A stretch of 64,000 nt of DNA from Escherichia coli (GTDB taxonomy: Bacteria; Pseudomonadota; Gammaproteobacteria; Enterobacterales; Enterobacteriaceae). Under the pieces are notes generated by a model that was not told where the DNA came from, made no database searches, and saw only the letters and a list, made by a program, of their open reading frames with translations. Shown here one piece after another: positions 1-18,055 of the stretch. The DNA lies in the NCBI RefSeq assembly GCF_024502345.1, contig NZ_JALDNN010000003.1. One strand, given 5' to 3'. Numbering within the stretch: the stretch's first letter is position 1; every line of letters begins with the position of its first letter. Position numbers and translations under genes: made by a program.

Positions 1-1201
1 CCGTATCACAGTGTCCGCCGGATGCGCCTCGCAGTACGCCGTCAGAACCGGTCAGTACGTTCACATTGAAGTTGGTGTCTACTTCTAATGCGCTCAGTAC
101 CACCACATCCAGACGGTCAACGGATGCGCCTTTTGAACCCCAGTTGGCATACTGGTTTGCACTGATTTCAATGTGGTTTGGGTTGCGGGCCAAGGACTCA
201 GCCGCGTTACGGTCGAAGCTCTGCACGTCCAGCAGTTTGCGAATCAGGCCTTTTTCATGCAGATCCACGATGGTGGCGGTGATGCCGCCCAGCGCGAAGT
301 CAGCACGGATATCGCGGCTGCGCATTTTGTCTTCCAGGAAACGCGTCACGGCCAGAGAAGCGCCGCCGGTGCCTGTCTGCAGTGAGAAGCCTTCATTGAA
401 GTAGCCGGAGTTAGCAATGACCTCTGCCGCGCTACGGGCGATTAACAGTTCACGCGGGTTAGTGGTCATGCGGGTCGCATCAGCACCGATTTTGTCCGCA
501 TCGCCGACCTGATCGATCTGCACGATCAGATCTACCTGATCCTGTGTAATGCTGGCCGGGTTATGTGGATAGGTCAGCAGTTGTTCAGTCAGCAGGACAA
601 CCTGTTTCGCGTTTTCGGCATCTACGCGGGCATAGCCCAGTGAACCGCAGCATGCTTTACCGGTATAACCGTTGGCGTTACCAAACTGGTCGCAGGACGG
701 TACGCCGAGAAACGCCACATCAATGCTGAGTTCGCCACTTTGTACCAAGTGTACACGTCCACCGTGGGAGTGAATCTGTACCGGTTCGGCCAGCAGGCCA
801 CGGGAGATCTCTTCCGCCAGCGGGCCACGCAACCCGGAGGTATAAATACGGCTGACCACGCCCTGACGGATGTGCTCAACCAGCGGAGCATGGCAATCGC
901 TCAGAGAGCTGGAGGCCAGCGTCAGATTTTTAAAGCCCATACTGGCGATGGCGTCCATCACCAGGTTAATCGTCAGATCGCCACCGCGAAAAGCGTGGTG
1001 GAAAGAGATGGTCATGCCATCCTGTAAACCTGAACGACGAATGGCGTCTTCCAGGTTAGCGCACAGCTTTTTGTCGCGCGGTTTTTGCGCCTGTAGTTCT
1101 ACTTTTGCGGTGCTCTGATAAGCGGAAAGCTCACTTTCTGCATGACGGCTCCAGGTCGCCACGCGATCCTGGCGTTGAGACTGTTCGATTTTCTGCGTCA
1201 T
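1..1201 (-). CDS. citF: citrate lyase alpha subunit (citrate CoA-transferase), 5' part only; gene runs off window start
   Basis: Reverse-strand ATG at 1201 gives MTQKIEQSQRQDRVATW..., matching CitF N-terminus; lies directly downstream of citE in operon order. Confidence 0.9.
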   Translation of the reverse strand, partial: MTQKIEQSQRQDRVATWSRHAESELSAYQSTAKVELQAQKPRDKKLCANLEDAIRRSGLQDGMTISFHHAFRGGDLTINLVMDAIASMGFKNLTLASSSLSDCHAPLVEHIRQGVVSRIYTSGLRGPLAEEISRGLLAEPVQIHSHGGRVHLVQSGELSIDVAFLGVPSCDQFGNANGYTGKACCGSLGYARVDAENAKQVVLLTEQLLTYPHNPASITQDQVDLIVQIDQVGDADKIGADATRMTTNPRELLIARSAAEVIANSGYFNEGFSLQTGTGGASLAVTRFLEDKMRSRDIRADFALGGITATIVDLHEKGLIRKLLDVQSFDRNAAESLARNPNHIEISANQYANWGSKGASVDRLDVVVLSALEVDTNFNVNVLTGSDGVLRGASGGHCDT

Positions 1202-1210
1202 TTTTTTGCC

Positions 1211-2119
1211 TTATTCTTCGCGAATGCCGGAAAGTTCTGCACGGGAGATAACCAGAAGGGCGCGCTCGATAACCGGGCTGTCGACCATTTTGCCGTTCAG
1301 GGAAACCACTCCACGACCTTCGCGGGCAGCGGCTTCAGCGGCTTCTACGACCAAACGGGCGTGAGCCAGCTCTTTGCGCGTCGGGGCGTACAGGTTATGC
1401 AGGAGTTCGATCTGGCGCGGGTTGATGAGCGACTTGCCGTCAAAACCCAACTGCTTGATGTGTGCGGCTTCGTGCAGGAAACCTGCTTCGTTGTTGGCAT
1501 CGGAATACACGGTGTCGAACGCCTGAATACCGGCAGAACGTGCAGCCTGCAAAATAGAGCAGCGGGCAAACAGCAGTTCAGTACCCTCCGGCGAGCGTTC
1601 AGTGCGCAGGTTACGCACATAATCTTCAGCACCCAGAGCAATACCGATCAGGCGCTCGGAAGCGTGGGCAATTTCTACCGCACGGGTAATGCCTAACGGC
1701 GACTCAATGGCGGCTAACAGGCCGGTGCTGCCGGGTTCACGGCCACAGGCGTTCTCGATGCGCAGAATTTCACTTTCGATGTCGATGACATCCTGCGCGG
1801 TATCGGTCTTCGGTAAACGTACGATGTCAGCACCGCCGCGTACCACGGCTTCAAGGTCGTTGATGCCCCATTCGGAGTCGAGGGCGTTTACACGCACGAT
1901 AGTTTCAACGTCGTGATACAGCGGATGCTGCAGCGCGTGGTACACCATGCGGCGAGCGGTATCTTTTTCACGCAACGCGACGGAGTCTTCCAGGTCGAAC
2001 ATCAGTGCATCTGCCGGGTAGATGAACGAGTTGCTGACCATGGCGGCATTGGCACCCGGTACGAACAACATGCTGCGGCGAGTACGGGTTTTACGTTGTT
2101 GCAAAGATGCGGAAATCAC
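1211..2119 (-). CDS. citE: citrate lyase beta subunit (citryl-CoA lyase)
   Basis: Translation [28 protein letters not shown]... near-identical to CitE; GTG at 2119 overlaps citD stop (GTGA coupling); alternative ATG at 2134. Confidence 0.9.
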
Positions 2120-2412
2120 TGGCAATCCTCCCATGGCAGTGCCGGAATACCGCCAGCGCGGGCCAGTAGTGCTTCCAGTCGCGCACGTAAAATGCAGTCC
2201 AGTGCGCCTTTATCATCAACATTTAATTGCACGCCGCGTACGTTGTAGCGGGACAGAACGTCCAGGATGGTGGTCCGAATGGCATCACCGAACTGTTTTT
2301 CGACGCTACTGTTAACCTGCAGGTCAATATCCTGCGAATCGAGTGGGGCGATGCGAATCATCACATCACCGGACTCGAGTGTGCCTGCGACGGCTGCCTG
2401 GTTTATTTTCAT
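2116..2412 (-). CDS. citD: citrate lyase acyl carrier protein (gamma subunit)
   Basis: 98-aa [27 protein letters not shown]... matches CitD; 4-bp overlap with citC. Confidence 0.9.
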
Positions 2413-3485
2413 TTTTCACCTGTTGCTAATGCGGGGGTATTTTGGCGGACTGCCGCACCCGATGAGGCTCGTTCAACCATGCTTTGCAGATAGTGCAGCG
2501 TGGCGTCAGGGACCAGGGATGCGATAGCCGTGAGATCTTTTTTAACCAGCAGCTTGCGCACCCAGGAGGCGGAAATCGGCATCTCCTGGAAGCACAGCCG
2601 CTCAATTTCCACCAGTTCAATCGGTGGGGCGGGAAGCGTTGGGGTCTCCAGCCAGTAGCGCATATCGTTGTTGTACTGGGAGGTGACGGAGCAATACGGC
2701 TCGGTACCGACGAAACGATGTGTAACGCCGAGAGCCGGTGCCAGGTACTGGCGGAAGATTTTCAGGTCTATTTCGGTGTAGCAGTGGTTAATAACGCTCT
2801 GCTCTTTGATGAAGTAGCACGGGAACGTGGCGCGGGAAATGATGTATTCCGAACCGCGATGCACGGTTAAACGTGGAATATCTTTTGTCCCTTTAAGCAC
2901 CAGATCCAACCGGTCTTCATACGGAAACCGTGAGGTATCCTCTTTGACCAAAAACAGATGCAGCCAGTCACATTGTGCGGCCGCCTGTTGGATCAGAAAA
3001 CGATGTCCGTTGGTGAAGGGGTTGGCGTTCATGACGATGCAACCAATTTTTTTCCCTTCACGACGCTGTTTTGCCAGAGATTCAGCGTAACGTTTCAGAC
3101 GCGTGGTGCTGTTTTCCATCAGCACCATAATGCCGGGAACGCTGGTCAGCGTAGAAAAGCCACACTGTTTAAACAGCGATTCGTACTCGGTTTTGGTATA
3201 GATGAAGAGGTGCGTACAGTGGCGCTCATAGGCGAGGTTGATTAACTCGGTCGCCAGCGTCAGCGCTAAGCCTTCGCCCCGTACGGATTCGCAGATGGCG
3301 ACACATTTTATAATATTCCCAGCGATACCGCCGCAGGCAATCAGGCGGTCGTCTCGGGTGACGGTGATAAATACTTCGACGGTGGTGTCAACGCTCAAAT
3401 CATTCTCTTTCAGAAATTGCGTGATAGCCGCCATCTTTTTATTTTCTGAGCGTTTAACTTGCGTGAATATATTATTACCGAACAT
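2409..3485 (-). CDS. citC: [citrate (pro-3S)-lyase] ligase
   Basis: 358-aa [28 protein letters not shown]... colinear with CitC. Confidence 0.92.
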
Positions 3486-3875
3486 AGTGAATAGAGCCCC
3501 GATGCTATATTTGTTACTGGGTTTCTGTTTTTGTTGCTCTGCTTAGCAACCTGATAACGTTTTGTTTGCAATTGAAGGGAATGGTTTTTTATTACGGAGT
3601 ATTTCTTTTTTTCCCTGCTGCATACATCGTAAGGGGTATTTTGGAGGTAATTTTTGATTTATTTCACAATAAGTTAGAAGGTTTTAATGTGTTTTATGGT
3701 TTTAAGTTTTTTAATTAATTTAACCTCGAAATAGCGTGTGGTTTTAATTTGTTTAATTGATTTAAAGTGGGGAATCTGCAACGATCTTGTTTTATACACG
3801 TAACGTGTAAATAAAACATTTCTATTACAACTACAATGAGAAATAAGTTTCGGGCAACGTGGATGAGGAAGATAT
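3486..3875. promoter_or_regulatory. divergent citC / citA intergenic control region, AT-rich with repeated GGTTTTAA-type motifs
   Basis: 390-bp ORF-free AT-rich spacer between divergent operon starts; repeated (G)GTTTTAA(T/G) units visible around 3660-3760. Confidence 0.45.
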
Positions 3876-5537
3876 ATGGCTGAGCAGAAAAATAAAACAC
3901 GGTTTCCTTTTTTCCGCAGCCTGGCGTTTCCTTTACGCATCTTTCTGCTTATTTTGGTCGTTTCTGTTTTTATCATCGCCGCCCTGGCACAATACTTTAC
4001 CGCCAGCTTTGAAGATTATCTGGCCGCGCATGTCCGCGATATGGCAATGAACCAGGCCAAAATCATCGCCTCTAACGACAGTATCATCACGGCAGTTAAA
4101 CATCGTGATTACAAGCGTTTGGCGACGATTGCCGACAAACTGCAGAGCGGAACTGACTTCGACTATGTGGTTATCGGGGATACCAACTCCATTCGTCTAT
4201 ATCATCCGAACCCGGAAAAGATTGGCTACCCGATGCAGTTCACCAAACCCGGTGCGCTGGAAAAAGGGGAAAGCTACTTTATTACCGGTAAAGGGTCCAT
4301 CGGGATGGCAATGCGCGCTAAAACGCCCATCTTTGATGACGATGGCAAAATCATTGGCGTAGTCTCAATTGGTTATCTGATCAGCAAAATCGATAGCTGG
4401 CGATCGGATTTCTTACTCCCGATGGCCGGTGTGTTTATCTTGCTGTTGTTGGTTCTTATGCTGCTATCCTGGTTTTTCGCTGCCCATATTCGTCGGCAGA
4501 TGTTGGGTATGGAACCGAAACAAATTGCGCGGGTGGTACGTCAGCAGGAAGCGTTGTTCAGCTCGGTATATGAAGGATTGATTGCCGTGGATCCTGATGG
4601 ATATATCACCGCAATAAACCGCAGTGCGAGGAAAATGCTGGGGCTGTCTTCACCAGGGCGAAAGTGGCTTGGAAAACCGGTGAGTGAGGTGGTTCAGCCA
4701 GCGGACTTTTTCACCCAACAGATTGCGGAAAAACGACAGGATGCGATGGTAAACTTTAATGGCCTGAGCGTTATCGCCAACCGTGAAGCGATTCGCTCTG
4801 GTGACGAACTGCTTGGGGCAATCATCAGTTTTCGTAGTAAAGATGAAATTGCTACCCTTAATGCGCAATTAACGCAGATCAAACAGTATGTAGAGAGCCT
4901 GAGAACGCTGCGTCATGAGCACCTGAACTGGATGTCGACCATCAATGGCCTGCTGCAAATGAAAGAATATGACAAGGTTCTGGCCATGGTGCAGGGAGAA
5001 TCCCAGGCGCAACAGCAACTGATTGACAGCCTGCGTGGCGCGTTTGCCGATCGTCAGGTCGCCGGTCTGTTGTTTGGCAAGGTTCAGCGCGCACGGGAAC
5101 TGGGCCTCACCATGACTATCGTTCCGGGGAGCCAACTGCATCAACTCCCCGAGGGGCTGGATAGCACAGAGTTTGCAGCAATTGTTGGCAATCTGCTTGA
5201 TAATGCATTTGAAGCGAGCTTACGCACCCAGCAAGGCAACAAGGTCGTAGAGCTCTATTTGAGCGATGAAGGGGATGACGTGATCATCGAAGTTGCCGAT
5301 CAGGGATGCGGTGTGCCGGAAGCATTGCGTGAGAAAATATTTGAACAGGGTGTGAGCACCCGTACCGATGAACCAGGTGAACATGGCATCGGTTTGTATC
5401 TGATTGCAAGTTATGTGAGGCGCTGTGACGGGGTGATTACGCTCGAAGATAACTCCCCTTGCGGTACCTTATTTTCTTTATTTCTTCCGAAAGTGAAAAA
5501 AAATAATGACGGAACCATTAACGCTGTTGATCGTTGA
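3876..5537 (+). CDS. citA: citrate-sensing histidine kinase (CitA/DpiB)
   Basis: 553-aa ORF; periplasmic sensor region plus HisKA/HATPase motifs (DNAFEAS, GIGLYL); colinear with E. coli DpiB. Confidence 0.92.
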   Translation: MAEQKNKTRFPFFRSLAFPLRIFLLILVVSVFIIAALAQYFTASFEDYLAAHVRDMAMNQAKIIASNDSIITAVKHRDYKRLATIADKLQSGTDFDYVVIGDTNSIRLYHPNPEKIGYPMQFTKPGALEKGESYFITGKGSIGMAMRAKTPIFDDDGKIIGVVSIGYLISKIDSWRSDFLLPMAGVFILLLLVLMLLSWFFAAHIRRQMLGMEPKQIARVVRQQEALFSSVYEGLIAVDPDGYITAINRSARKMLGLSSPGRKWLGKPVSEVVQPADFFTQQIAEKRQDAMVNFNGLSVIANREAIRSGDELLGAIISFRSKDEIATLNAQLTQIKQYVESLRTLRHEHLNWMSTINGLLQMKEYDKVLAMVQGESQAQQQLIDSLRGAFADRQVAGLLFGKVQRARELGLTMTIVPGSQLHQLPEGLDSTEFAAIVGNLLDNAFEASLRTQQGNKVVELYLSDEGDDVIIEVADQGCGVPEALREKIFEQGVSTRTDEPGEHGIGLYLIASYVRRCDGVITLEDNSPCGTLFSLFLPKVKKNNDGTINAVDR

Positions 5538-6186
5538 GGATGAAACGCTACTGGCGGAAATGCATGCTGAATATATCCGCCATATACCCGGTTTCAGCCA
5601 GATATGGCTGGCGGGTAATCTTGAGCAGGCGAGGATGATGATTGAGCGTTTTAAGCCCGGTCTGATACTGCTCGATAACTACTTGCCGGACGGCAAGGGA
5701 ATTACGTTGCTGCATGAGCTGACCCAGGCGCGCTATCCGGGCGGCGTAGTGTTTACCACGGCGGCCAGCGATATGGAAACGGTCTCCGAGGCTGTGCGCA
5801 GCGGTGCGTTTGATTACCTGGTCAAACCCATTGCCTACGAGCGGCTGGGGCAGACCCTGACGCGTTATCAACAACGTCGACGCATGTTGGCGGGGAATGA
5901 CAGCGCCAGCCAAAAGCAGATTGATGAAATGTTTAATGCCTACGCGCGGGGCGAACCGAAAGGGGATTTACCGACTGGGATTGATGCGTTAACACTAAAT
6001 GCAGTGTTGAAATTATTCGCCGACCCGACGGTACACCATACTGCGGAAACGATCGCCCAGGCGCTTACCATCAGCCGAACGACTTCCAGACGCTACCTGG
6101 AGTACTGTGCCAGCCGTCATTTGATTATTGCGGAGATTATTCACGGTAAGGTAGGCAGGCCGCAGCGTATTTATCATGGCGGCTAA
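5506..6186 (+). CDS. citB: response regulator CitB/DpiA
   Basis: 226-aa ORF MTEPLTLLIVEDETLLAEMH... receiver domain plus C-terminal HTH; overlaps citA end. Confidence 0.9.
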   Translation: MTEPLTLLIVEDETLLAEMHAEYIRHIPGFSQIWLAGNLEQARMMIERFKPGLILLDNYLPDGKGITLLHELTQARYPGGVVFTTAASDMETVSEAVRSGAFDYLVKPIAYERLGQTLTRYQQRRRMLAGNDSASQKQIDEMFNAYARGEPKGDLPTGIDALTLNAVLKLFADPTVHHTAETIAQALTISRTTSRRYLEYCASRHLIIAEIIHGKVGRPQRIYHGG

Positions 6187-6199
6187 ATGCTGATTTCTG

Positions 6200-6290
6200 A
6201 CGTAGGCCGGATAAGATGTTTTAGCATCGACATCCGGCAACGGTGCGGTTTAAATGCCGGATGCGGCGTAGATGCCTAATCCGGCCTACA
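6200..6290. repeat. REP/BIME-like extragenic palindromes
   Basis: GTAGGCCGGATAAG ... GCCGGATGCGGCGTAGATGCCTAATCCGGCCTAC, typical enterobacterial REP units in inverted orientation. Confidence 0.6.
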
Positions 6291-6302
6291 TTTCACTGAG
6301 TA

Positions 6303-7044
6303 TCAGCCGCCAACGACGGCTGAAGAAGAACCTGGTACCATCACTTCAGTTGCGATAATCACAACCAACAGCCCAACCAGAACCGGAACCGAGGTACGTT
6401 TCACCACTTCGAACGGAGAAATCTTTGCCATACCTGCGACAGCGACAACCACGCCGGAGACCGGGGAGATTGTGCGCCCAAGGTTTGACGCCTGCAGCAT
6501 CGGGATAACAAGGTAAGCCGGGTTAATGCCGGAAGAATGCGCCAGCTTAGGGATCATTTCAACGAAGGCGTAGAACGGGGCGTTACCGGAACCCGTAGTC
6601 ATTGCCGCCAGCATAGTCAGGATCACCAGCACCATCATCAAGATAATGCTCGCTGAACCAAACGAGGTGGCGATAGAAATCAGACTCTGAATAAAGCCGA
6701 TTGTGCTCAGACCCTGGGCAAAAACACCCGCAGCGACTAACAACATCACCACGTTAGCAAAGGCATCCGCCATGCCACGGTAAGCGACTTCCAGACCAGA
6801 GAAAACCTTTTGGGTGTTGAACCCACGTACGAACTCCAGAATAGCCGCGATGAGCATGCACAGAACCAGAATCGTAATGATGTGCAACTGCGGGCCCCAT
6901 TTACCATCAAAAATCAGGACGCCAACGATCGGGGTAAACGGCAGAATGGCGTAAAATGACGGGGCAGTCGTGGTGATTTCAGCCACATCTAACATTTCAT
7001 GAGAAATGTTCTCTTTTTTATCCAGAAAACGCTGCCAGAAAAAG
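6303..7044 (-). pseudogene. dcuC: anaerobic C4-dicarboxylate transporter DcuC, 3' fragment (N-terminal ~210 codons missing, cut by IS26)
   Basis: Translation FFWQRFLDKKENISHEMLDVAEITTTAPSFYAILPFTP... matches C-terminal half of DcuC; reading frame runs into IS26 IR at 7045. Confidence 0.85.
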
Positions 7045-7832
7045 GGCACTGTTGCAAATAGTCGGTGGTGATAAACTTATCATCCCCTTTTGCTGATGGA
7101 GCTGCACATGAACCCATTCAAAGGCCGGCATTTTCAGCGTGACATCATTCTGTGGGCCGTACGCTGGTACTGCAAATACGGCATCAGTTACCGTGAGCTG
7201 CAGGAGATGCTGGCTGAACGCGGAGTGAATGTCGATCACTCCACGATTTACCGCTGGGTTCAGCGTTATGCGCCTGAAATGGAAAAACGGCTGCGCTGGT
7301 ACTGGCGTAACCCTTCCGATCTTTGCCCGTGGCACATGGATGAAACCTACGTGAAGGTCAATGGCCGCTGGGCGTATCTGTACCGGGCCGTCGACAGCCG
7401 GGGCCGCACTGTCGATTTTTATCTCTCCTCCCGTCGTAACAGCAAAGCTGCATACCGGTTTCTGGGTAAAATCCTCAACAACGTGAAGAAGTGGCAGATC
7501 CCGCGATTCATCAACACGGATAAAGCGCCCGCCTATGGTCGCGCGCTTGCTCTGCTCAAACGCGAAGGCCGGTGCCCGTCTGACGTTGAACACCGACAGA
7601 TTAAGTACCGGAACAACGTGATTGAATGCGATCATGGCAAACTGAAACGGATAATCGGCGCCACGCTGGGATTTAAATCCATGAAGACGGCTTACGCCAC
7701 CATCAAAGGTATTGAGGTGATGCGTGCATTACGCAAAGGCCAGGCCTCAGCATTTTATTATGGTGATCCCCTGGGCGAAATGCGCCTGGTAAGCAGAGTT
7801 TTTGAAATGTAAGGCCTTTGAATAAGACAAAA
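7045..7832 (+). mobile_element. IS26 (IS6 family), left 788 bp, interrupted by IS66-family insertion
   Basis: Begins GGCACTGTTGCAAA (IS26 terminal IR); contains intact tnp26; sequence ...GAATAAGACAAAAG breaks at 7833. Confidence 0.9.
7108..7812 (+). CDS. tnpA: IS26 transposase Tnp26
   Basis: MNPFKGRHFQRDIILWAVRWYCKYGISYREL...RLVSRVFEM, 234 aa, matches IS26 transposase as I recall it. Confidence 0.95.
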   Translation: MNPFKGRHFQRDIILWAVRWYCKYGISYRELQEMLAERGVNVDHSTIYRWVQRYAPEMEKRLRWYWRNPSDLCPWHMDETYVKVNGRWAYLYRAVDSRGRTVDFYLSSRRNSKAAYRFLGKILNNVKKWQIPRFINTDKAPAYGRALALLKREGRCPSDVEHRQIKYRNNVIECDHGKLKRIIGATLGFKSMKTAYATIKGIEVMRALRKGQASAFYYGDPLGEMRLVSRVFEM

Positions 7833-7862
7833 GTAAGCGTTAAGTGAGCGCCGTATTGACGG

Positions 7863-9455
7863 CTATTTATTGGTGAGATCTACGTTCCATGGCAGCAGTT
7901 CGGCCACTTTGTTGATGGGCCACTCCGGCAATACGCTCAGGATATGGCGAAGGTAACCCTCTGGATCGATACCGTTCAGCCTGCACGTTCCGATCAGACC
8001 ATACAGCAGGGCACCACGTTCACCACCATGATCACTGCCGAAGAAGATGTAGTTTTTCTTGCCCAGACAGACCGCTCGTAGCGCGCGCTCAGCAGCGTTA
8101 TTATCCGGCTCTGCCAGACCATCATCGCAGTAGTAACACAGGGCATCCCACTGGTTCAGTGCATAAGCGAACGCCTCGCCTAACCGGGATTTTTTCGACA
8201 GAGTGGCTCTTTTCTCCACCAACCAGTCATGCAGGGATATCAGCAACGGTTTACTTCGGGACCGTCTGGCGGCCAGCCGCTGAGATGCCGGAAGGCCGCG
8301 TATTTCCTCTTCTATCGCGTATAACTCACTGATGCGCTTCAGAGCCTCCTCTGCTGTGGCCGTCCGGGTGCTGATATAGACGTCATGGATTTTGCGCCGC
8401 GCATGAGCCCAGCATGCCGCTTCTGTCAACGGGCCACCTTCACGCTCTGCGCTGAACAACCTGTCGTACCCTGCGAAGGCATCTGCCTGCAGCACGCCAT
8501 GATAGTGCCGAAGATGTTGCTGAGGGTGTTTCCCCTGTCGGTCCGGTGAGAAGGCGAACCATGCCGCTGGCGGATCTGATGAACCCGCGCTTCTGTTATC
8601 ACGGACATATGTCCAGATACGCCCGGTTTTCGTCTTCTTTCTGCCCGGCGCCAGCACGGGCACCGGAGTGTCATCCGTATGCAGTTTGCGGCAGTCCATC
8701 ACGTAGTGGTAGAGGGCTTCATCCAGCGGGGCCATTAACCGGCAGCACGCATCCACCCAGTTGGAGAGCAGCGCACGACTCAGATCCACACCCTGACGGG
8801 CAAAGATTTCGCACTGGCGATACAGCGGCAGGTGTTCACAGTATTTGGCCGTTAACACGCGGGCCAGCAGACCCGGCCCGGCGATGCCCCGGTCGATAGG
8901 ACGTGAGGGCGCTGGCGCTTCAACGACGCAGTCGCATCGGGTACAGGCCTTTTTCACTCTGACCGTGCGGATCACTTTCAGGGCGCTGGAGACCAGCTCC
9001 AGTTGCTCCGCGCTGACTTCGCTGAGATAGGCCATATCACTACCGCAACCAGGACAGCTGGTTTCAGCTGGCTCCAGTCTGTTTATTTCGCGGGGAAGAT
9101 GTTCCGGTAACGGGCGACGATGACGGGACTGGCGCAACTGACGCGGAACCTGCTGATCATTGTCCCGGCCGTTGTAACGATCGCTTTGCTGCTCCTGCTG
9201 TTTCAGCAGGGCTTCGGCTTCTTCGACCTGCCGGCGTAGCTTTTCTGAACGGGTACCGAACAGCATTCGGCGCAGTTTTTCTATCTGAGCCCGCAGATAT
9301 TCTATTTCACGCTCTTCGTTCTCTATTTTCTCTTCTGCGCGGGCCAGCGCCGAACGCAGGAACGACTCAGTCTCAGCAACGAGACTGAGCTGGCTGTCTT
9401 TCTGGCGAAGCGCGTCTTCCAGCGCAGCGATACGGGCGAGATAGTCCTGACTCAT
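7863..9455 (-). CDS. IS66-family transposase TnpC (orf3)
   Basis: 530-aa ORF with N-terminal coiled coil, zinc-finger (CPGCG...CTRCDC) and DDE core typical of IS66 TnpC. Confidence 0.9.
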   Translation of the reverse strand: MSQDYLARIAALEDALRQKDSQLSLVAETESFLRSALARAEEKIENEEREIEYLRAQIEKLRRMLFGTRSEKLRRQVEEAEALLKQQEQQSDRYNGRDNDQQVPRQLRQSRHRRPLPEHLPREINRLEPAETSCPGCGSDMAYLSEVSAEQLELVSSALKVIRTVRVKKACTRCDCVVEAPAPSRPIDRGIAGPGLLARVLTAKYCEHLPLYRQCEIFARQGVDLSRALLSNWVDACCRLMAPLDEALYHYVMDCRKLHTDDTPVPVLAPGRKKTKTGRIWTYVRDNRSAGSSDPPAAWFAFSPDRQGKHPQQHLRHYHGVLQADAFAGYDRLFSAEREGGPLTEAACWAHARRKIHDVYISTRTATAEEALKRISELYAIEEEIRGLPASQRLAARRSRSKPLLISLHDWLVEKRATLSKKSRLGEAFAYALNQWDALCYYCDDGLAEPDNNAAERALRAVCLGKKNYIFFGSDHGGERGALLYGLIGTCRLNGIDPEGYLRHILSVLPEWPINKVAELLPWNVDLTNK

Positions 9456-9485
9456 GACCCCATTTATAATGCGGTCATGCGCTTT

Positions 9486-9836
9486 TTACAACATCGTCAG
9501 TGAGTTAAGGCGTGCAGTTTTAGGTTGCCGCCAGTCCAGCTTATCGAGGAGCATGGCGAGTTGTGAGCGGGTGATGGCGATTTTGCCGTCGCGTACAGCA
9601 GGCCAGACGAACTGTCCCTCTTCCAGACGTTTGGTAAACAGACACAGACCGTCAGCATCAGCCCAGAGGATCCTCACGGTGTCACCTTTACGACCACGGA
9701 AGATAAACAGGTGGCCGGAGAACGGATTGTCATCAAGAACATGCTGGACCAGTTCGCCCAGACCATTGAAGGACTTACGCATATCGGTGACCCCGGCAAC
9801 CAGCCAGATACGAGTGCCTGACGGTAAGGGTATCAT
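9486..9836 (-). CDS. IS66-family accessory protein TnpB (orf2)
   Basis: MIPLPSGTRIWLVAGVTDMRKSFNGL... ; ATGA overlap with upstream orf1. Confidence 0.85.
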   Translation of the reverse strand: MIPLPSGTRIWLVAGVTDMRKSFNGLGELVQHVLDDNPFSGHLFIFRGRKGDTVRILWADADGLCLFTKRLEEGQFVWPAVRDGKIAITRSQLAMLLDKLDWRQPKTARLNSLTML

Positions 9837-10240
9837 CGGCTCCTCCCGGTCAGCTCGCGGATCAGCGTTTTCAGAAGTGCAGGTGATAAATCCCCGGACA
9901 GACGCAGGCTGGCACCGCCGACAGTCACCTCGCATGTCATGGCCTCGCGGCAGGCTGGAGCGGCGGGTTCATAGTGCGGCTCAGCATGGTGTGACAGGGC
10001 CATATCAGGCAGGACAACGGGGATAACAGAGTCTTGCTCTCTGATTGACCGTTGTATTTCATCGGGCAGAAGATGTCTGTAACGCTGGCGCCAGGTAAAC
10101 AGCAGATTGTCATTAATTCCATTATCCCGCGCCAACCGGGCAACACAGGCTCCAGGCTGATATGACTTTTCGACGAGAGCCAGCTTAAAGTCCATTGAGT
10201 AGGACGCCCGCGCCCTGCGGGGCTGAAGAGTGTTTGACAT
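9833..10240 (-). CDS. IS66-family accessory protein TnpA (orf1), HTH
   Basis: 135-aa ORF first in three-gene IS66 operon. Confidence 0.8.
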   Translation of the reverse strand: MSNTLQPRRARASYSMDFKLALVEKSYQPGACVARLARDNGINDNLLFTWRQRYRHLLPDEIQRSIREQDSVIPVVLPDMALSHHAEPHYEPAAPACREAMTCEVTVGGASLRLSGDLSPALLKTLIRELTGRSR

Positions 10241-10326
10241 TGATAGAGTCCATTAACGTTAATAAGAGGACTCTATCATCGTCAATCGTTAGTAATCGCA
10301 ACAGGCGGCAGTGGCTTGACGCTTAC

Positions 10327-10366
10327 AGACAAAAGGCTGCCTCATCGCTAACTTTGCAACAGTGCC
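10327..10366 (+). mobile_element. IS26 right end (includes duplicated AGACAAAA, then 32 bp ending in IS26 IR)
   Basis: AGACAAAAGGCTGCCTCATCGCTAACTTTGCAACAGTGCC continues IS26 exactly where it was broken at 7832. Confidence 0.85.
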
Positions 10367-10455
10367 GTCGCTGACATCGTGCAACGACACAGAGCTAACG
10401 CTTAGGGTGTCATTTCGCCCTCAGCCGGAACCGACCCCAAGGACAGCGACTCTCA

Positions 10456-12834
10456 GTGATGGAGCACCTAAAAAGAGGCCCTGTCACTATCAGCGGCCCC
10501 GCATTCACTGAAGCACTTGAACGTTACACTCGCCTGCGCAGCCTGGAATTTTCCTGCCTGAATTTCACTGGGCTGCCTGCCATACAGCTCCGCAACCTGG
10601 CACGCTATGCCGGAATGGCATCGGTGAAATATATCAGCAGAATGCCAGAAGAACGGCGGCTGGCTATCCTTACCGCGTTCGTGAAAGCGCAAGAAATCTC
10701 GGCGCTGGACGAGGCCGTTGACGTGCTGGATATGCTGATCCTCAATATTACCAGGGAGGCGAAGAAAACCGGGCAGAAAAAGCGACTTAGGACGCTCAAG
10801 GATCTTGACCGTGCGGCGTTGTTGCTGGCGCGGGCATGTGCACTTTTACTTGATGAAGATACTGGTGATGATTTGCTGCGAAAGACCATATTCAGCAGTG
10901 TACCTGTCGCCAGACTGGCAGAGTCAGTGGAAAAAGTGAATGAACTGGCCCGCCCCCAGGATACAAACTTTCAGGATGAAATGGTGGAGCAGTACGGACG
11001 GGTAAGGCGTTTTTTGCCCGCACTACTGCGCGATCTGCACTTCCGGGCGGCCCCAGACGGTGAACATACCCTCGCGGCCATCCATTACCTGGCAGAGCTA
11101 AACGGCTCGAAAAAACGGATCCTGGACGATGCACCTGAGCATATCATTTCAGGCCCTTGGAAACGCCTGGTGTACGATGCTGAAGGTCGGATACAGCGAG
11201 CGGGTTACTCGTTGTGTCTGCTGGAGCGACTTCAGGATGCGCTACGCCGTCGTGACATCTGGTTGGAAAACAGCGATCGTTGGGGTGATCCGCGCCAAAA
11301 ACTTCTTCAGGGGGAGGAATGGCAGGCGCAGCGGGTTCCAGTGTGCCGGGCATTGGGTCACCCCACCAATGGCAGTAAAGCATCGGTGCAATTGGCAGCA
11401 CGGTTGGATGAAACCTGGAAAACGGTGGCATCACGTTTTGACCGCAATACCGCCGTAGACATCTGCAATGAAGGTAAACATCCTTCGCTGACCATCAGCA
11501 GCCTGGATAAATTGGATGAGCCACCGGCGCTGATACGACTGAGCAGCCGAGTCAGACAATTGCTCCCACCCGTTGACCTGACAGAACTGTTGCTTGAGAT
11601 TGACGCCAGAACGGGTTTCACCCGTGAATTCAGCCATGTCAGCGAGTCAGGTGCCCGCGCGCAGGATCTGCATATAAGCCTGTGTGCGGTGATGCTGGCT
11701 GAGGCCTGCAATATCGGACATGAGCCGCTGATCAAGCACAATATCCCTGCACTGACCCGCCATCGCCTGAGCTGGGTGAAACAGAACTACATCCGAGCAG
11801 AAACGCTGGTCAGCGCCAATGCGCGGCTGGTTGATTTTCAGTCCTCGTTAGCGTTGGCAGGATACTGGGGTGGCGGTGAGGTGGCCTCCGCTGATGGTAT
11901 GCGTTTTGTCACACCAGTGAAAACGGTGAATTCTGGCCCCAACAGAAAATACTTTGGTTCAGGGCGCGGCATTACCTGGTACAACTTTGTCTCTGACCAA
12001 TATTCGGGTTTTCATGGCATAGTGATCCCTGGAACGCTGCGGGATTCCATTTTTGTGCTGGAGGGACTACTTGAGCAACAAACGGGACTAAACCCGGTTG
12101 AAATCATGACGGACACAGCAGGTACCAGTGACATTATCTTTGGCTTGTTCTGGCTACTGGGATACCAATTTTCACCTCGTCTGGCGGATGCTGGTGAGGC
12201 GGTGTTCTGGCGGGCTGACAAAGCAGCGAATTACGGGGCGTTGGACGAACTGGCTCGGGGTTGTGTTGACCTTTCTAAAATCGAAAGCCACTGGGATGAG
12301 ATGATGCGGGTTGCAGGTTCGCTGAAGCTGGGCACAATTCATGCGTCAGAACTCATTCGATCGCTATTGAGAAGTACCCGACCGTCAGGGCTTGCTCAGG
12401 CAATAATGGAGGTCGGAAGAGTTAACAAGACACTGTATCTTCTCAACTATATTGATGATGAGGACTATCGCCGCAGGATCCTAACACAGCTTAACCGGGG
12501 CGAAGGTCGCCATGCCGTGGCAAGAGCCATTTGCTACGGTCAGCGTGGTGAGATCAGAAAACGTTACCGCGAGGGGCAGGAAGATCAGTTGGGTGCGCTG
12601 GGTCTGGTGACAAACGCAGTGGTGCTGTGGAATACGCTTTATATGCAGGAAGCCTTGTCGCACCTGCGTAGCACTGGGGAAGGGCCAGAAGATGAACATA
12701 TCGCGCGGCTTTCGCCTCTGATGCATGGTCATATCAACATGCTGGGACATTATACGTTCACACTACCGGAGGATATTATGAAGGGGGAATTGAGGCCGTT
12801 AAATCTCAATTTAAACAATGAATTACCTCCTTAG
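10456..12834 (+). pseudogene. Tn3-family transposase TnpA, 5'-truncated (about 200 N-terminal codons missing; upstream 90 bp in a different frame)
   Basis: 792-aa translation colinear with C-terminal ~4/5 of Tn3-family TnpA (about 1000 aa); starts at IS26 junction; stop codon lies inside terminal IR. Confidence 0.85.
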
Positions 12835-12867
12835 CGTGGTTTTTTACATCATTGGCCCTCAAACCCC
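12830..12867. repeat. Tn3-family 38-bp terminal inverted repeat
   Basis: Reverse complement reads GGGGTTTGAGGGCCAATGATGTAAAAAACCACGCTAAG (GGGG...ACGCTAAG pattern of Tn3-family IRs), overlapping tnpA stop. Confidence 0.8.
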
Positions 12868-12913
12868 TTATATGCGTTCTTAACGTTTGCTGCCCACTGT
12901 TCAATGCGGAGCA

Positions 12914-13060
12914 TCATTGCATATGTTGCTGCGGCATCAAGATCCAGTTGTTCAGAGTGTTCAGGGAGCAGAATTTTACAATATTCCAGTCATGAGCCAC
13001 AGCTCCGAGCCGTTCATAAAGTGTAGATAGTTGCGTTATGGAATCATCAGTGCGGTTCAT
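12914..13060 (-). CDS. small ORF (48 aa), translationally coupled (ATGA) to upstream 222-aa gene
   Basis: MNRTDDSITQLSTLYERLGAVAHDWNIVKFCS...; start overlaps stop of 13057-13725 gene; ends 47 bp from Tn3 IR; may be remnant of a gene disrupted by the transposon. Confidence 0.25.
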   Translation of the reverse strand: MNRTDDSITQLSTLYERLGAVAHDWNIVKFCSLNTLNNWILMPQQHMQ

Positions 13061-13725
13061 GAATAGCGCCGACTTCCAATAATATATTGAGCAAGTTTGA
13101 TGTTAAGACATACCATGTTGCTTGATAGTTGGCGCATCATACGGGATTCGCTACGAATTAAATAGGATTCAAGTAGTCCAGAATATTCCCCTGACGTTAC
13201 AACCGTCAACTGGGCAATGTGATTATTTAATTTGCTTACCCCTGCCAGGATATCATCCTCCGTCGCCTCGATATAAACGGGGGAGGCAGCGATAACATAA
13301 TCATCGAAAGGTCTTGCTGCCATCAATGTCTCAATAGATTTCGCCGTCCTTTCTTTCCCGAATGTATTTGTTAATTCCCGCCACCATTGTCGGTGACTGA
13401 ACGGTAAATCATGAAAGGTGGCTTCATAAGCGTCCACGAGGTCACGACTATTCAAAAAACCCAACCCGGCCGAGATCACCCACAACTCCAGGTTCTCAGT
13501 TGTCCGTAATATCTCTTTTGCCGTTGACCAGTGATTACCGGCATAGAGCGACAGGGCCGGTACCGGTGAAGCACTTTGCGACCGTTTAATCGTTGCTGCC
13601 CAGCTGGACATTGCCTCTTCTGGTGTCTGTCCAGACCGGATACTCAGTTCTGGCATGGAGCCGCACTGGCTGTGCTTACCTTTGGTACAGGACGTTATTA
13701 GGTGTGTAATTCGCGACGCCGCCAT
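13057..13725 (-). CDS. hypothetical protein (222 aa)
   Basis: ATG at 13725 preceded by GAGGG SD; ORF track extends to TTG at 13743; no family recognised. Confidence 0.55.
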   Translation of the reverse strand: MAASRITHLITSCTKGKHSQCGSMPELSIRSGQTPEEAMSSWAATIKRSQSASPVPALSLYAGNHWSTAKEILRTTENLELWVISAGLGFLNSRDLVDAYEATFHDLPFSHRQWWRELTNTFGKERTAKSIETLMAARPFDDYVIAASPVYIEATEDDILAGVSKLNNHIAQLTVVTSGEYSGLLESYLIRSESRMMRQLSSNMVCLNIKLAQYIIGSRRYS

Positions 13726-13935
13726 TTTGTAGCCCTCAGCCAAATGTGTGTAATCACTGTCTAACTATCGTAACAGCCCCTCATCCGCCATAACGACAAA
13801 GAGGAAGCCCTAAACGTAAACGACTACCCCATTATACATTTAGTCATGCCTTTACTAATAACTAGATACCAAAGTAAACACCCCAGAGGTGACACCGTCA
13901 CGTTTTTCGGCTTTATTTAGTTCATTTTATGTACT

Positions 13936-13963
13936 ATGGGATTTAATTATGGGTAAATCCCAT
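13936..13963. promoter_or_regulatory. perfect 10-bp inverted repeat ATGGGATTTA-N8-TAAATCCCAT in divergent promoter region
   Basis: Read directly; sits in 500-bp AT-rich ORF-free region between divergent genes; CTTTACTAAT also repeated at about 13846 and 14141. Confidence 0.4.
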
Positions 13964-14233
13964 AGATTTACACCTCTACTCAAAAGAGCCTAATAGAAAC
14001 TAAATCCTTATATATCAATAACTTGAATTCGCCATCACGCACCCATAGAGAGCACCCGTCTTTTGTCGGGCCGTAGGGTTGTTGGCCCCATAGTAACTGC
14101 ATGCTAATCTCTTTCATGCTTAGTCACTAGTAAAGGCTTTACTAATTGCGATGCTACGTGAATATTATTGACGGAGGAGGGGGTTGGGGCAGTGAAAATC
14201 TCTCAGCCAAAACAGTGGGAAAAGGATCGTGAA

Positions 14234-15046: not shown

Positions 15047-15048
15047 GA

Positions 15049-16269: not shown

Positions 16270-16323
16270 CTGCTCCCGCCAGGAATTTGCAATAGACTTA
16301 AATTCCTGGCGTCCACAGGCTCT

Positions 16324-16539
16324 TTATCCCGTTCGCAGGAGTTTACGTCCTTCCGACAGCATTAGGCTGATTTTCCCCGAATCACTGATCTCAATAGCAT
16401 CAACCAGGCTAGTGATCCCGCCAACAGCTTGCTGTTGTGAAATAGCTCCCAGTTTGTAGTCATCGAGTACTGCCGCCAAAAACGCCTTCAGTTTAACCTG
16501 CTCACTCATCGAAAGTATGTACGCCATTTTTAGCCCCAT
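16324..16539 (-). CDS. small hypothetical protein (about 71 aa), 4th gene of methyltransferase operon
   Basis: ATG 1 nt after stop of 439-aa gene; MGLKMAYILSMSEQVKLKAFLAAVLDDYKLGAISQQQ... Confidence 0.3.
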   Translation of the reverse strand: MGLKMAYILSMSEQVKLKAFLAAVLDDYKLGAISQQQAVGGITSLVDAIEISDSGKISLMLSEGRKLLRTG

Positions 16540-16540
16540 T

Positions 16541-17860: not shown

Positions 17861-17884
17861 GGGACCTCCTGAAATTTAAAAATA

Positions 17885-18055
17885 CTAATAGCCTAGCCAT
17901 ATCAATACTTCTTGCGCGTTGTACTCTTCCCTCTCACCCAACTCGGAAAAAAATACGTCTATGTCGCTGGCTACGACGCAATGTTTTGCAAGCTCTTGCA
18001 GAGCTCTCTGTTTTGAAATGGTGAGGTCTTCTGCTGAATCAAAATACGTCATCAT
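17885..18055 (-). CDS. small ORF (56 aa) between methyltransferase and 439-aa gene
   Basis: MMTYFDSAEDLTISKQRALQELAKHCVVASDIDVFFSELGEREEYNAQEVLIWLGY; GGAGG SD; below ORF-track length cutoff. Confidence 0.3.
   Translation of the reverse strand: MMTYFDSAEDLTISKQRALQELAKHCVVASDIDVFFSELGEREEYNAQEVLIWLGY

What the first reader, a model, noticed from the sequence alone, without database searches (positions are those of the whole stretch)
6303..12867. IS26-mediated junction fusing the chromosomal cit/dcuC locus to a truncated Tn3-family transposon
IS26 is bounded on the left by dcuC cut at about codon 213 and on the right by a Tn3-family tnpA lacking about 200 N-terminal codons. The 8 bp flanking IS26 differ (no target duplication), which is the signature of IS26-mediated deletion, inversion or cointegrate resolution rather than simple insertion. 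The 90 bp between IS26 and the tnpA ORF are open only in another frame, so tnpA is also frameshifted or decayed. The missing dcuC 5' half is not in this window.
Basis: partly seen in the sequence, partly recalled or inferred. Interest (0 to 1): 0.45.

Follow-up and report, generated by a model that had tools for sequence, protein, structure and literature searches.

The report
IS26 junction on a mosaic plasmid
This is an ordinary but multi-layered scar of mobile-element activity: a 16.5-kb piece of Citrobacter freundii chromosome (citrate-fermentation genes) was captured by the insertion sequence IS26 onto an IncHI1-type conjugative plasmid, next to the wreck of two nested Tn3-family transposons.

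Summary

1. The cit/dpiBA/dcuC' DNA is not host chromosome in place. It is 79.7% identical to E. coli chromosomes and 99.97% identical to a Citrobacter freundii-type chromosome. Its closest complete relative (99.98% over 21 kb) is a circular 300,631-bp IncHI1A plasmid. There, a second, directly oriented IS26 bounds the other end of the same 16.5-kb segment, which makes it an IS26 pseudo-compound transposon.

2. The "IS26" spans 3,322 bp because a 2,494-bp IS66-family element sits inside its right end, flanked by an 8-bp duplication (AGACAAAA).

3. The bases between IS26 and tnpA are not decayed tnpA. Positions 10367-10438 are the last 72 bp of Tn5403 (tnpR end plus 38-bp inverted repeat). Tn5403 had inserted into tnpA at codon 205 and was then cut back by IS26. 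The tnpA remnant (residues 206-1002) is in frame with no frameshift.

4. The missing dcuC 5' half, the transposon's left part (SIR2-HerA defence cargo, tnpR) and the rest of Tn5403 are absent from the complete relative plasmid. They were lost, not relocated by inversion.

Confirmed as stated: dcuC is cut at codon 215, and the 8-bp flanks differ (AGAAAAAG versus GTCGCTGA). This is a known mechanism with low-to-moderate interest.

The parts
1..7044 (.). Right-hand 7 kb of a captured Citrobacter freundii-type chromosomal segment: citF' (partial), citE, citD, citC, dpiB (3876-5537), dpiA (5506-6186) and dcuC'.
   Evidence: It is 79.7% identical to E. coli chromosomes. It is 99.97% identical (2 mismatches in 7,044 bp) to the 5.18-Mb chromosome CP154587.1, and 99.2-99.4% to seven other contigs carrying an intact dcuC. 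It is 95.5% identical to C. portucalensis A60. NCBI names the exact DpiB protein 'Citrobacter freundii'. Homology ends exactly at 7044.
6303..7044 (-). dcuC' : the 3' 742 nt of dcuC (codons 215-461). The 5' 644 nt are missing.
   Evidence: NCBIfam NF007937 DcuC, E = 1.2e-138, profile positions 216-454 of 455. The intact 461-codon gene is at L008 6068-7453, and the homology break is at L008 6809.
7037..7044 (.). The 8 bp flanking the left end of IS26: AGAAAAAG.
   Evidence: Read from the sequence. The same flank occurs in L050, L057 and the MSB1_9D plasmid.
7045..7832 (+). IS26 positions 1-788: IRL at 7045-7058 and an intact tnp26 at 7108-7812.
   Evidence: Exact inverted-repeat match. NF033587 IS6-family transposase, E = 2.3e-82, 234 aa. 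Alignment to an 820-bp IS26 shows 2 SNPs, at IS26 positions 685 and 789.
7825..7832 (.). Left copy of the 8-bp target duplication (AGACAAAA) made by the IS66-family insertion. These bases are IS26 positions 781-788.
   Evidence: The same 8 bp recur at 10327-10334.
7833..10326 (-). IS66-family insertion sequence of 2,494 bp with ends GTAAGCG...CGCTTAC. It carries tnpC (7863-9455), tnpB (9486-9836) and tnpA (9833-10240).
   Evidence: NCBIfam IS66 transposase E = 5.6e-135, IS66 TnpB E = 8.7e-35, IS66 TnpA E = 1.2e-22. Boundaries and duplication. RefSeq annotation of the identical region.
10327..10366 (+). IS26 positions 781-820: the right copy of the duplication (10327-10334) and IRR (10353-10366).
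10367..10438 (+). Tn5403 remnant: the last 39 nt of tnpR (stop TAG at 10403-10405) overlapping the 38-bp terminal inverted repeat at 10401-10438. On the minus strand the repeat reads GGGGTCGGTTCCGGCTGAGGGCGAAATGACACCCTAAG. The first 8 bp, GTCGCTGA, are the right flank of IS26.
   Evidence: It matches about 2,660 plasmid records, many at 100%. In annotated copies the match covers the end of the resolvase gene next to a 'Tn5403 family transposase'.
10439..12834 (+). Truncated tnpA of a roughly 7.5-kb Tn3-family transposon. Residues 206-1002 are kept in frame; codons 1-204 and one further nt are missing.
   Evidence: NF033527 Tn3-family transposase, E = 3.7e-282, profile positions 184-954 of 954, no internal stop. 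It is 99.96% identical to the intact 1,002-aa gene in L002 from its nt 614 onward.
12830..12867 (-). Right 38-bp terminal inverted repeat of that Tn3-family transposon (GGGGTTTGAGGGCCAATGATGTAAAAAACCACGCTAAG). The plasmid backbone begins at 12868 (TTATA...).
   Evidence: It matches the left repeat of the intact copy, L002 2918-2955. Homology with other carriers ends at 12868-12870.

Best explanation
The region is a layered mobile-element junction on an IncHI1A-type conjugative plasmid. It is not a chromosome-transposon fusion in place.

Inferred order of events:
1. A roughly 7.5-kb Tn3-family transposon (IRL, HerA, SIR2, tnpR, tnpA, IRR) sat in the plasmid backbone next to the DUF6884 gene.
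2. Tn5403 inserted into its tnpA at codon 205.
3. IS26 activity removed everything to the left: most of Tn5403, the 5' 613 nt of tnpA, tnpR and the SIR2-HerA cargo. This left IS26 abutting 72 bp of Tn5403 with no target duplication.
4. An IS26 sitting in dcuC of a Citrobacter freundii-type chromosome mobilised the adjacent 16.5 kb (dmsA', dmsBC, uspG, rnk, rna, citTGXFEDC, dpiBA, dcuC'). The most likely vehicle is a translocatable unit of one IS26 plus the segment. This unit joined the plasmid at a resident IS26.
5. The result is IS26a, segment, IS26b in direct orientation (a pseudo-compound transposon). The dcuC 5' half stayed behind in the donor.
6. Last, an IS66-family element inserted 32 bp from the right end of IS26b, leaving an intact 8-bp duplication.

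Shown directly: the anatomy, all breakpoints, the origin of each piece, the plasmid context of the closest relative, and the absence of the missing pieces from that relative.

Inferred: the order of steps 1 to 4, and whether Tnp26 chemistry or homologous recombination made each join.
For: Anatomy:
- IS26 ends.
- The IS66-family element with its duplication.
- The Tn5403 end.
- An in-frame tnpA remnant.

Ancestral state:
- The intact transposon lies next to the same DUF6884, DUF4942 and DUF1173 backbone genes in L002 and L062.
- Its cargo is SIR2-HerA: PADLOC HerA 6.6e-250, SIR2 4e-155.

Origin of the cit segment:
- 79.7% identity to E. coli.
- 99.94-99.97% identity and collinear with chromosome CP154587.1, which has intact dmsA, dcuC, pagP and cspE.
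- NCBI labels the exact DpiB protein C. freundii.

Plasmid context:
- NZ_LR890350.1 is circular, 300,631 bp, IncHI1A, MOBH, with trh/tra/rep/par genes.
- It is 99.98% identical to window 1-21387.
- Its IS26a (record 95128-95947) and IS26b::IS66 (112430-115751) are both on the + strand.

Resident IS26 and incoming IS26:
- The RelE, IS110, IS26a junction is 100% identical in an unrelated plasmid that has different DNA to the right of IS26a. 951 plasmid records cover at least 80% of the IS110-unit query ending at that junction.
- IS26b differs from IS26a at IS26 positions 685 and 789. The G at position 789 is shared by the IS26 at the same dcuC' junction in two other assemblies. This fits IS26b arriving with the segment.

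Loss rather than inversion:
- The dcuC 5' half, the transposon's left part and the rest of Tn5403 are absent from the whole relative plasmid.
- The dcuC 5' half is absent at 90% identity or more from all PLSDB plasmids.

Precedent:
- A Tn5403 copy truncated by an adjacent IS26 deletion is described in PMC5142620.
- IS26 cointegrates, translocatable units, pseudo-compound transposons and loss of flanking repeats are reviewed in PMC7986276.
Against: - The window starts inside citF, so its own left boundary cannot be seen. IS26a is about 10 kb upstream in the relative.
- The window is not the same molecule as NZ_LR890350.1. They differ at 21388-28556 and beyond 34616.
- A 3.15-Mb contig (JBHZEU010000001.1) carries the same dcuC'-IS26 junction with a longer segment bounded by IS1 on the left. 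Chromosomal or integrated versions therefore exist, and the direction of transfer between contexts is unresolved.
- No plasmid with the predicted intermediate (a single IS26 between the IS110 element and the 72-bp Tn5403 end) was found in PLSDB.
- The SNP argument assumes which IS26 variant was resident.
Confidence: 0.75

Rival explanations
1. One reading: the window is a bacterial chromosome whose native cit/dcuC locus has been fused by IS26 to plasmid or transposon DNA. This would happen by IS26 cointegrate formation integrating a plasmid into dcuC, or by IS26-mediated deletion or inversion. The dcuC 5' half would then lie elsewhere in the same chromosome next to another IS26.
For: - The left edge of the segment is outside the window.
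- The same dcuC'-IS26 junction occurs on a 3.15-Mb contig.
- The segment is 99.97% identical to a Citrobacter-type chromosome, so a donor chromosome carrying an integrated plasmid would look identical within the window.
Against: - The only complete record with the whole junction is a circular IncHI1A plasmid. It has an IS26 at the other end of the segment and no dcuC 5' half.
- A second carrier is a 314-kb, plasmid-sized contig.
- The window shares the IS66 insertion and the IS26 position-685 SNP with these plasmid versions and not with the 3.15-Mb contig.
- On the 3.15-Mb contig both sides of the segment are also non-native: IS1 plus P1-like genes on the left, plasmid-like DNA on the right.
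Confidence: 0.12
2. The joins were made by RecA-dependent homologous recombination between pre-existing IS26 copies on different replicons, with no Tnp26-catalysed step. The missing duplications would reflect reshuffling among the many IS26 copies.
For: - The relative plasmid has 10 IS26 copies and none has matching flanks. This is typical of extensive IS26-IS26 exchange.
- The review lists recA-dependent routes for forming and resolving translocatable units.
Against: - IS26a keeps the resident variant at both SNP positions, while IS26b keeps G at position 789. Any crossover would therefore have to lie in the last 31 bp or at the very end of the element. That fits end-directed Tnp26 reactions better.
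- The original dcuC' and dmsA' breakpoints still need a transposase-made cut.
Confidence: 0.1
3. The junction is an assembly artefact: a false join of a chromosomal contig and a plasmid contig across the repeated IS26.
For: IS26 is a multi-copy repeat (10 copies in the relative plasmid) and often causes misjoins.
Against: - The identical junction, with the same flanks, appears in the window and in three other records (LR890350.1, JBRKCY010000002.1, JBHZEU010000001.1).
- The IS26 here is uniquely marked by the IS66 insertion. A read-through of dcuC', IS26, IS66, IS26 end and Tn5403' is therefore not ambiguous.
Confidence: 0.02

Closest known systems
IS26 pseudo-compound transposons and translocatable units (e.g. 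Tn4352, Tn6023; Harmer & Hall; reviewed in PMC7986276)
   Same: In the closest complete relative, two directly oriented IS26 copies bracket a passenger segment. There is no 8-bp duplication around the whole structure or around either IS26. A resident IS26 acts as the entry point, and in another carrier (L050) a further IS26 unit has been added beside it.
   Different: The passenger is not a resistance gene. It is 16.5 kb of Citrobacter housekeeping and metabolic chromosome, including the complete citrate-lyase/citT/dpiBA cluster. One bounding IS26 carries a nested IS66-family element. The left IS26 cannot be seen in the window itself.
IS26-adjacent deletion leaving a truncated Tn5403 (pKPC-e4e and pKpQIL-6e6 in He et al. 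2016, PMC5142620)
   Same: Tn5403 first inserted into a gene of another transposon. An IS26-mediated deletion then removed most of Tn5403 together with neighbouring DNA, leaving a short Tn5403 end directly against IS26.
   Different: The target here was the tnpA of a SIR2-HerA-carrying Tn3-family transposon on an IncHI1A backbone. Only 72 bp of Tn5403 survive.
IS15 (IS26 carrying a nested insertion sequence)
   Same: It is an IS6-family element interrupted by another insertion sequence. The review mentions IS15 (1,648 bp) as one insertion sequence inserted into another.
   Different: The nested element here belongs to the IS66 family (2,494 bp). It sits downstream of tnp26, so the transposase gene and both 14-bp ends remain intact.
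Classical plasmid-borne citrate utilisation (Cit+) determinants of IncH plasmids (recalled from memory, not tested here)
   Same: Citrate-related genes are carried on an H-group plasmid and flanked by insertion sequences.
   Different: As recalled, those determinants encode a citrate carrier. Here the cargo is the anaerobic citrate-lyase pathway with citT and its two-component regulator, copied from a Citrobacter chromosome.

Membership tests
IS26 (IS6 family) | Perfect 14-bp terminal inverted repeats GGCACTGTTGCAAA | tested here: met
   They lie at 7045-7058 (+) and 10353-10366 (-), with 0 expected by chance.
IS26 (IS6 family) | 820-bp element with a single 234-aa DDE transposase | tested here: met
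   788 + 32 bp = 820 bp once the IS66 element and one duplication copy are removed. There are 2 SNPs relative to another IS26. The Tnp26 product hits NF033587 at E = 2.3e-82.
IS26 (IS6 family) | 8-bp direct target repeat, expected for a simple cointegrate-and-resolution insertion | tested here: not met
   The flanks are AGAAAAAG and GTCGCTGA. This does not affect membership. It indicates deletion, a translocatable unit or recombination rather than simple insertion.
IS26 pseudo-compound transposon | Two IS26 copies in direct orientation flanking a passenger segment | tested here: inconclusive
   The feature is met in the 99.98%-identical relative NZ_LR890350.1: IS26 at record 95128-95947 and 112430-115751, both on the + strand. 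The window begins inside the passenger, so its own left end cannot be seen.
IS66 family | Three genes tnpA-tnpB-tnpC, terminal repeats beginning GTAAGCG, and an 8-bp target duplication | tested here: met
   NCBIfam hits for all three proteins. Ends GTAAGCG...CGCTTAC and duplication AGACAAAA.
Tn5403 (Tn3 family) | 38-bp terminal inverted repeat adjoining the 3' end of tnpR, identical to annotated Tn5403 copies | tested here: met
   100% identity over the 72 bp to many plasmids. In those plasmids the match lies at the end of the resolvase gene beside a 'Tn5403 family transposase'.
Tn5403 (Tn3 family) | Complete element with tnpA, res, tnpR and both terminal repeats | tested here: not met
   Only 72 bp are present. 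The rest is absent from the window and from the relative plasmid. It is a remnant, not an element.
Tn3-family transposon (unnamed, SIR2-HerA cargo) | Tn3-type DDE transposase and 38-bp terminal repeats beginning GGGG and ending in TAAG | tested here: met
   NF033527 at E = 3.7e-282 for residues 206-1002. The right repeat is at 12830-12867 and matches the left repeat of the intact copy in L002.
Tn3-family transposon (unnamed, SIR2-HerA cargo) | Intact, mobile unit with both repeats, tnpR/res and full-length tnpA | tested here: not met
   The left repeat, HerA, SIR2, tnpR and tnpA codons 1-204 are missing.
DcuC C4-dicarboxylate carrier | Full-length protein of about 455-461 aa | tested here: not met
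   Only profile positions 216-454 are present, and the score of 462.7 is below the equivalog cut-off of 513. It is a pseudogene fragment.

The most novel reading that the evidence does not exclude
The captured Citrobacter block is a functional, self-regulated metabolic module (citT, citCDEFXG and dpiBA are all intact) riding on a conjugative IncHI1A plasmid. It might give new hosts a second, divergent citrate-fermentation pathway. An extra DpiBA two-component system might also cross-talk with host regulation. DpiA is known, from my own recall and not tested here, to influence plasmid replication and the SOS response. On this reading the cargo is selected rather than accidental, which would explain why the same block persists in at least four different genetic contexts.
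Probability: 0.1. Interest if true: 0.5.

Novelty: new member of a known kind. Interest (0 to 1): 0.25.

Why it matters
The finding illustrates how IS26 moves ordinary chromosomal operons, not only resistance genes, between genera on large conjugative plasmids. It also shows that successive elements (a Tn3-family transposon, Tn5403, IS26, an IS66-family element) leave a readable stratigraphy.

There are two practical lessons for annotation. A chromosomal-looking locus next to IS26 need not be chromosome. A short unexplained spacer next to IS26 can be the scar of a third element.

The events also removed a SIR2-HerA anti-phage system from the plasmid lineage. None of this changes what is understood about IS26 mechanism.

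Tried and rejected
1. I looked for a matching 8-bp flank, direct or reverse-complement, among all 10 IS26 copies of the complete relative plasmid. None matched, so no inversion or deletion partner could be named.

2. I searched for the C. freundii-type dcuC 5' half plus pagP. It is absent from the window, from the relative plasmid and, at 90% identity or more, from all PLSDB plasmids.

3. I searched for the transposon's left part and the Tn5403 body in the relative plasmid. There is only an unrelated 109-bp left-end fragment at record 188574-188682 and a 73%-identical tnpA of another transposon.

4. I looked for the predicted precursor plasmid (IS110 element, single IS26, 72-bp Tn5403 end). 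It was not found. The Tn5403'/tnpA junction is unique to NZ_LR890350.1 in PLSDB.
   - K. pneumoniae plasmid CP056373 has IS26 cutting the same tnpA 370 bp further upstream. That is an independent event.
   - Hit H30 carries IS26 and the IS66 element separately, not nested.

5. I tried to find the window's own source record. It is not in the E. coli complete-genome set or in PLSDB.

6. Literature searches for the strain, for the donor accession and for an IncHI1/IS26/citrate-lyase/Citrobacter combination found no description of this event.

7. I considered composite-transposon transposition with a duplication around the whole unit. I rejected it because the outer flanks, ATTTTTTG and GTCGCTGA, differ.

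8. The species of the 3.15-Mb contig JBHZEU010000001.1 could not be determined with these tools.


Full report
**What is in the sequence**

- The 14-bp IS26 terminal repeat GGCACTGTTGCAAA occurs exactly twice in the 64-kb window, at 7045-7058 (+) and 10353-10366 (-), with none expected by chance. The two ends are 3,322 bp apart, not 820 bp.
- Reading the sequence and aligning it to an 820-bp IS26 gives this layout:
  - IS26 positions 1-788 lie at 7045-7832.
  - IS26 positions 781-820 lie at 10327-10366.
  - Between them, at 7833-10326, sits a 2,494-bp element with ends GTAAGCG...CGCTTAC.
  - That element is flanked by an 8-bp duplication of IS26 sequence (AGACAAAA, at 7825-7832 and 10327-10334).
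- The element's three genes hit the NCBIfam models for IS66 TnpC (5.6e-135), TnpB (8.7e-35) and TnpA (1.2e-22).
- The insertion lies downstream of the tnp26 stop codon. The 234-aa transposase (7108-7812; NF033587, 2.3e-82) and both terminal repeats are intact.

**Left side of IS26**

- Positions 6303-7044 (minus strand) are the 3' 742 nt of dcuC.
- The product matches DcuC profile positions 216-454 of 455.
- In an intact 461-codon Citrobacter gene the break falls after nt 644, in codon 215.

**Right side of IS26**

That inference is wrong.
- Comparison with three carriers of the same tnpA (L002, L003, L004) shows that homology starts at 10439.
- Positions 10367-10438 are a different element. 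They comprise the last 39 nt of a resolvase gene, whose stop codon lies inside a 38-bp Tn3-family terminal repeat (GGGGTCGGTTCCGGCTGAGGGCGAAATGACACCCTAAG on the minus strand, 10401-10438).
- This 72-bp piece matches about 2,660 plasmid records, many at 100% identity. In annotated copies it is the tnpR-proximal end of Tn5403.
- From 10441 the tnpA frame reads without any stop through residues 206-1002 of the 1,002-aa protein (NF033527, 3.7e-282).
- The tnpA stop codon sits inside the transposon's right 38-bp repeat at 12830-12867. The plasmid backbone begins at 12868.
- tnpA is therefore truncated but not frameshifted. The truncation point is a Tn5403 insertion site, not an IS26 cut.

**What the truncated transposon was**

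- Related plasmids (L002 from E. coli 873.10; L062 from E. coli 0H26) carry the intact element next to the same DUF6884, DUF4942, DUF1173 and Dcm backbone genes. Its order is IRL, a 690-aa ATPase, a 463-aa SIR2 protein, resolvase, tnpA, IRR.
- PADLOC assigns the two cargo proteins to HerA (6.6e-250) and SIR2 (4e-155), a SIR2-HerA anti-phage pair.
- All of this, plus tnpR and 613 nt of tnpA, is missing from the window.

**Where the cit/dcuC DNA comes from**

- Window 1-7044 is only 79.7% identical to E. coli chromosomes. Among 5,426 complete E. coli genomes, a single record, a plasmid, carries it at 99% identity or more.
- A search of species-representative genomes gave Citrobacter portucalensis A60 as the best named match. 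DpiB is 100% identical at the protein level and the DNA is 95.5% identical. C. braakii, C. werkmanii and C. youngae score lower.
- An exact-protein look-up of DpiB found many megabase-scale contigs. They are collinear and 99.2-99.97% identical in DNA, with intact dcuC followed by pagP, cspE, crcB, lipA and dacA.
- The closest is CP154587.1 (5.18 Mb), with 2 mismatches in 7,044 bp.
- NCBI labels this exact DpiB sequence "Citrobacter freundii".
- The segment is therefore chromosomal in origin, from the C. freundii group, and foreign to E. coli.

**Where it sits now**

- Window 1-21387 is 99.98% identical to plasmid 2 of E. coli MSB1_9D (NZ_LR890350.1). That plasmid is 300,631 bp, circular, IncHI1A, MOBH and conjugative. 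I retrieved it completely; it carries the IncHI trh/tra, rep and par genes.
- The window's last ~24 kb (about 39400-64000) is likewise IncHI1A backbone; 20000-45000 matches other large enterobacterial plasmids carrying ars and pco genes.
- In the MSB1_9D plasmid a second IS26 (IS26a, record 95128-95947), in the same orientation, lies 16,482 bp to the left. It cuts a dmsA-like gene.
- The passenger is collinear with the Citrobacter chromosome: dmsA', dmsB, dmsC, uspG, rnk, a hydrolase, a flavin reductase, rna, citTGXFEDC, dpiBA, dcuC'.
- This structure meets the definition of an IS26 pseudo-compound transposon (PMC7986276).
- The window starts inside citF, so its own left end is not visible. 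The window is also not the same molecule as NZ_LR890350.1: they differ at 21388-28556 and beyond 34616. This is the main limitation of the analysis.

**Flanks and missing pieces**

- The 8-bp flanks are:
  - IS26b: AGAAAAAG and GTCGCTGA.
  - IS26a: ATTTTTTG and GTTTTACT.
- None of the 10 IS26 copies in the relative plasmid has a flank matching any other, whether direct or reverse-complement.
- The following are absent from that plasmid:
  - the C. freundii-type dcuC 5' half,
  - the transposon's left part,
  - the body of Tn5403.
- The dcuC 5' half is also absent, at 90% identity or more, from all PLSDB plasmids.
- The missing DNA was therefore lost or never transferred.

**How it most likely arose**

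- IS26a looks like a resident copy.
  - The junction RelE/HTH toxin-antitoxin, IS110-family element, IS26a is 100% identical over 4,987 bp in the 0H26 plasmid. There, different DNA follows IS26a.
  - 951 plasmid records cover at least 80% of the IS110-unit query that ends at this junction; in the one I inspected (L063) IS26 sits at the same junction in inverted orientation.
- IS26b looks like it arrived with the segment.
  - IS26b differs from IS26a at IS26 positions 685 and 789.
  - The G at position 789 is shared by the IS26 at the same dcuC' junction in two other assemblies.
- The simplest route has three steps.
  - An IS26 sat in dcuC of a Citrobacter chromosome.
  - It excised together with the adjacent 16.5 kb as a translocatable unit, by intramolecular replicative attack on dmsA.
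  - The unit then entered the plasmid at IS26a. No new duplication was made, and IS26b was placed against whatever had been to the right of IS26a.
- That right-hand neighbour was the 72-bp Tn5403 stump. It had been created earlier by Tn5403 insertion into tnpA, followed by an IS26 adjacent deletion.
- He et al. describe exactly this sequence of events, with a truncated Tn5403 left against IS26, for KPC plasmids (PMC5142620).
- The IS66-family insertion is the youngest event. Its duplication is intact, and it is absent from the dcuC'-IS26 junction on contig JBHZEU010000001.1.
- The order of the earlier steps, and whether Tnp26 or RecA made each join, are inferred rather than shown.
- The SNP pattern would confine any crossover to the last 31 bp of IS26. 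That mildly favours end-directed Tnp26 reactions.

**Other contexts of the same junction**

- JBRKCY010000002.1 (314,650 bp) has an extra IS26 plus a 1.2-kb unit inserted between dcuC' and IS26::IS66. IS26-driven change has therefore continued at this spot.
- JBHZEU010000001.1 (a 3.15-Mb contig) has a longer version of the segment.
  - It is bounded on the left by IS1 in the dmsD-like gene.
  - P1-like genes and the same Tn3-family tnpA/IRR lie nearby.
  - To the right of an uninterrupted IS26 there is plasmid-like DNA.
- This keeps a chromosomally integrated variant possible.

**Comparison with what is known, and verdict**

- Every component belongs to a described family, and the mechanism is textbook IS26 behaviour.
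- Four features are specific to this case:
  - the cargo, a complete Citrobacter citrate-lyase/citT/dpiBA module on an IncHI1A plasmid;
  - the nested IS66-family element inside IS26;
  - the three-layer scar to the right of IS26;
  - the loss of a SIR2-HerA defence system.
- I found no paper describing this event in the searchable library.
- It is a new member of a known kind and of modest interest (0.25).
The interpretation needs the four corrections given in the summary.

Noticed in passing
window 34054-38370 (+): Three co-directional ORFs (507, 558 and 387 aa) in the plasmid-type region have no Pfam hit and no meaningful PADLOC hit. In the MSB1_9D plasmid an IS26 cuts this block at the position matching window 34616.
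   Followed up: partly
window 30198-31559 (-): A 453-aa FRG-domain protein matches the PADLOC candidate defence family PDC-S15 (E = 1.7e-99). It sits among ISNCY-family elements, next to a 267-aa protein with no PADLOC hit (not scanned against Pfam).
   Followed up: partly
window 13057-19611: This backbone block lies beside the transposon remnant. It contains a DUF6884 gene, DUF4942 plus a 406-aa coiled-coil protein with weak JetC/LmuB similarity, DUF1173 and a Dcm-type cytosine methyltransferase. It could be a defence or anti-defence island; I did not analyse it further.
   Followed up: partly
window 21388-28556: The SulP transporter, Usp, ArsB, ArsH-like FMN reductase and ISNCY transposase block is present in the window. 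The otherwise near-identical MSB1_9D plasmid has different DNA here (an IS3-interrupted STM4504-family gene plus ISNCY).
   Followed up: partly
window 44425-45193 and 60656-61430: Two IS1 copies lie in opposite orientation about 15 kb apart in the IncHI1A backbone.
   Followed up: no
L002 2918-10437 (NZ_CP061755.1) and L062: The intact Tn3-family transposon carries a SIR2-HerA anti-phage system as cargo. In L002 it has no 5-bp target duplication (TTAGC versus TTATA). In L062 an IS5708-like element sits at its left end.
   Followed up: partly
L001 2554-4243 and L063: A unit of about 1.7 kb containing an IS110-family transposase abuts an IS26 end at the identical position in the plasmids inspected, with IS26 in either orientation (951 records cover at least 80% of the unit). 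This is an old, widely disseminated RelE/HTH, IS110, IS26 module.
   Followed up: partly
NZ_LR890350.1 whole record (L069-L074): The relative plasmid is a large mosaic with 10 IS26 copies and several other chromosomal-type cargo blocks: glgBCAP-pgm, a sucrose PTS operon, the clpK heat-resistance locus, an mla-like transporter, rpoH, a Tn7-like element, and a 14.7-kb VCBS adhesin gene with a type I secretion system.
   Followed up: no
L050 13170-18535 (JBRKCY010000002.1): An additional IS26 plus a 1.2-kb unit (a 267-aa protein with a faint ParB-like HTH, and a 78-aa ORF) is inserted directly to the left of IS26::IS66. This forms a tandem IS26 array at the same dcuC' junction.
   Followed up: partly
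L057 / L067 (JBHZEU010000001.1, 3.15-Mb contig): A longer version of the Citrobacter segment is bounded by IS1 on the left and by the same dcuC'-IS26 junction on the right. It is embedded among P1-like phage genes, the same Tn3-family tnpA/IRR and a type I restriction-modification system. The organism and the replicon type are unknown.
   Followed up: partly
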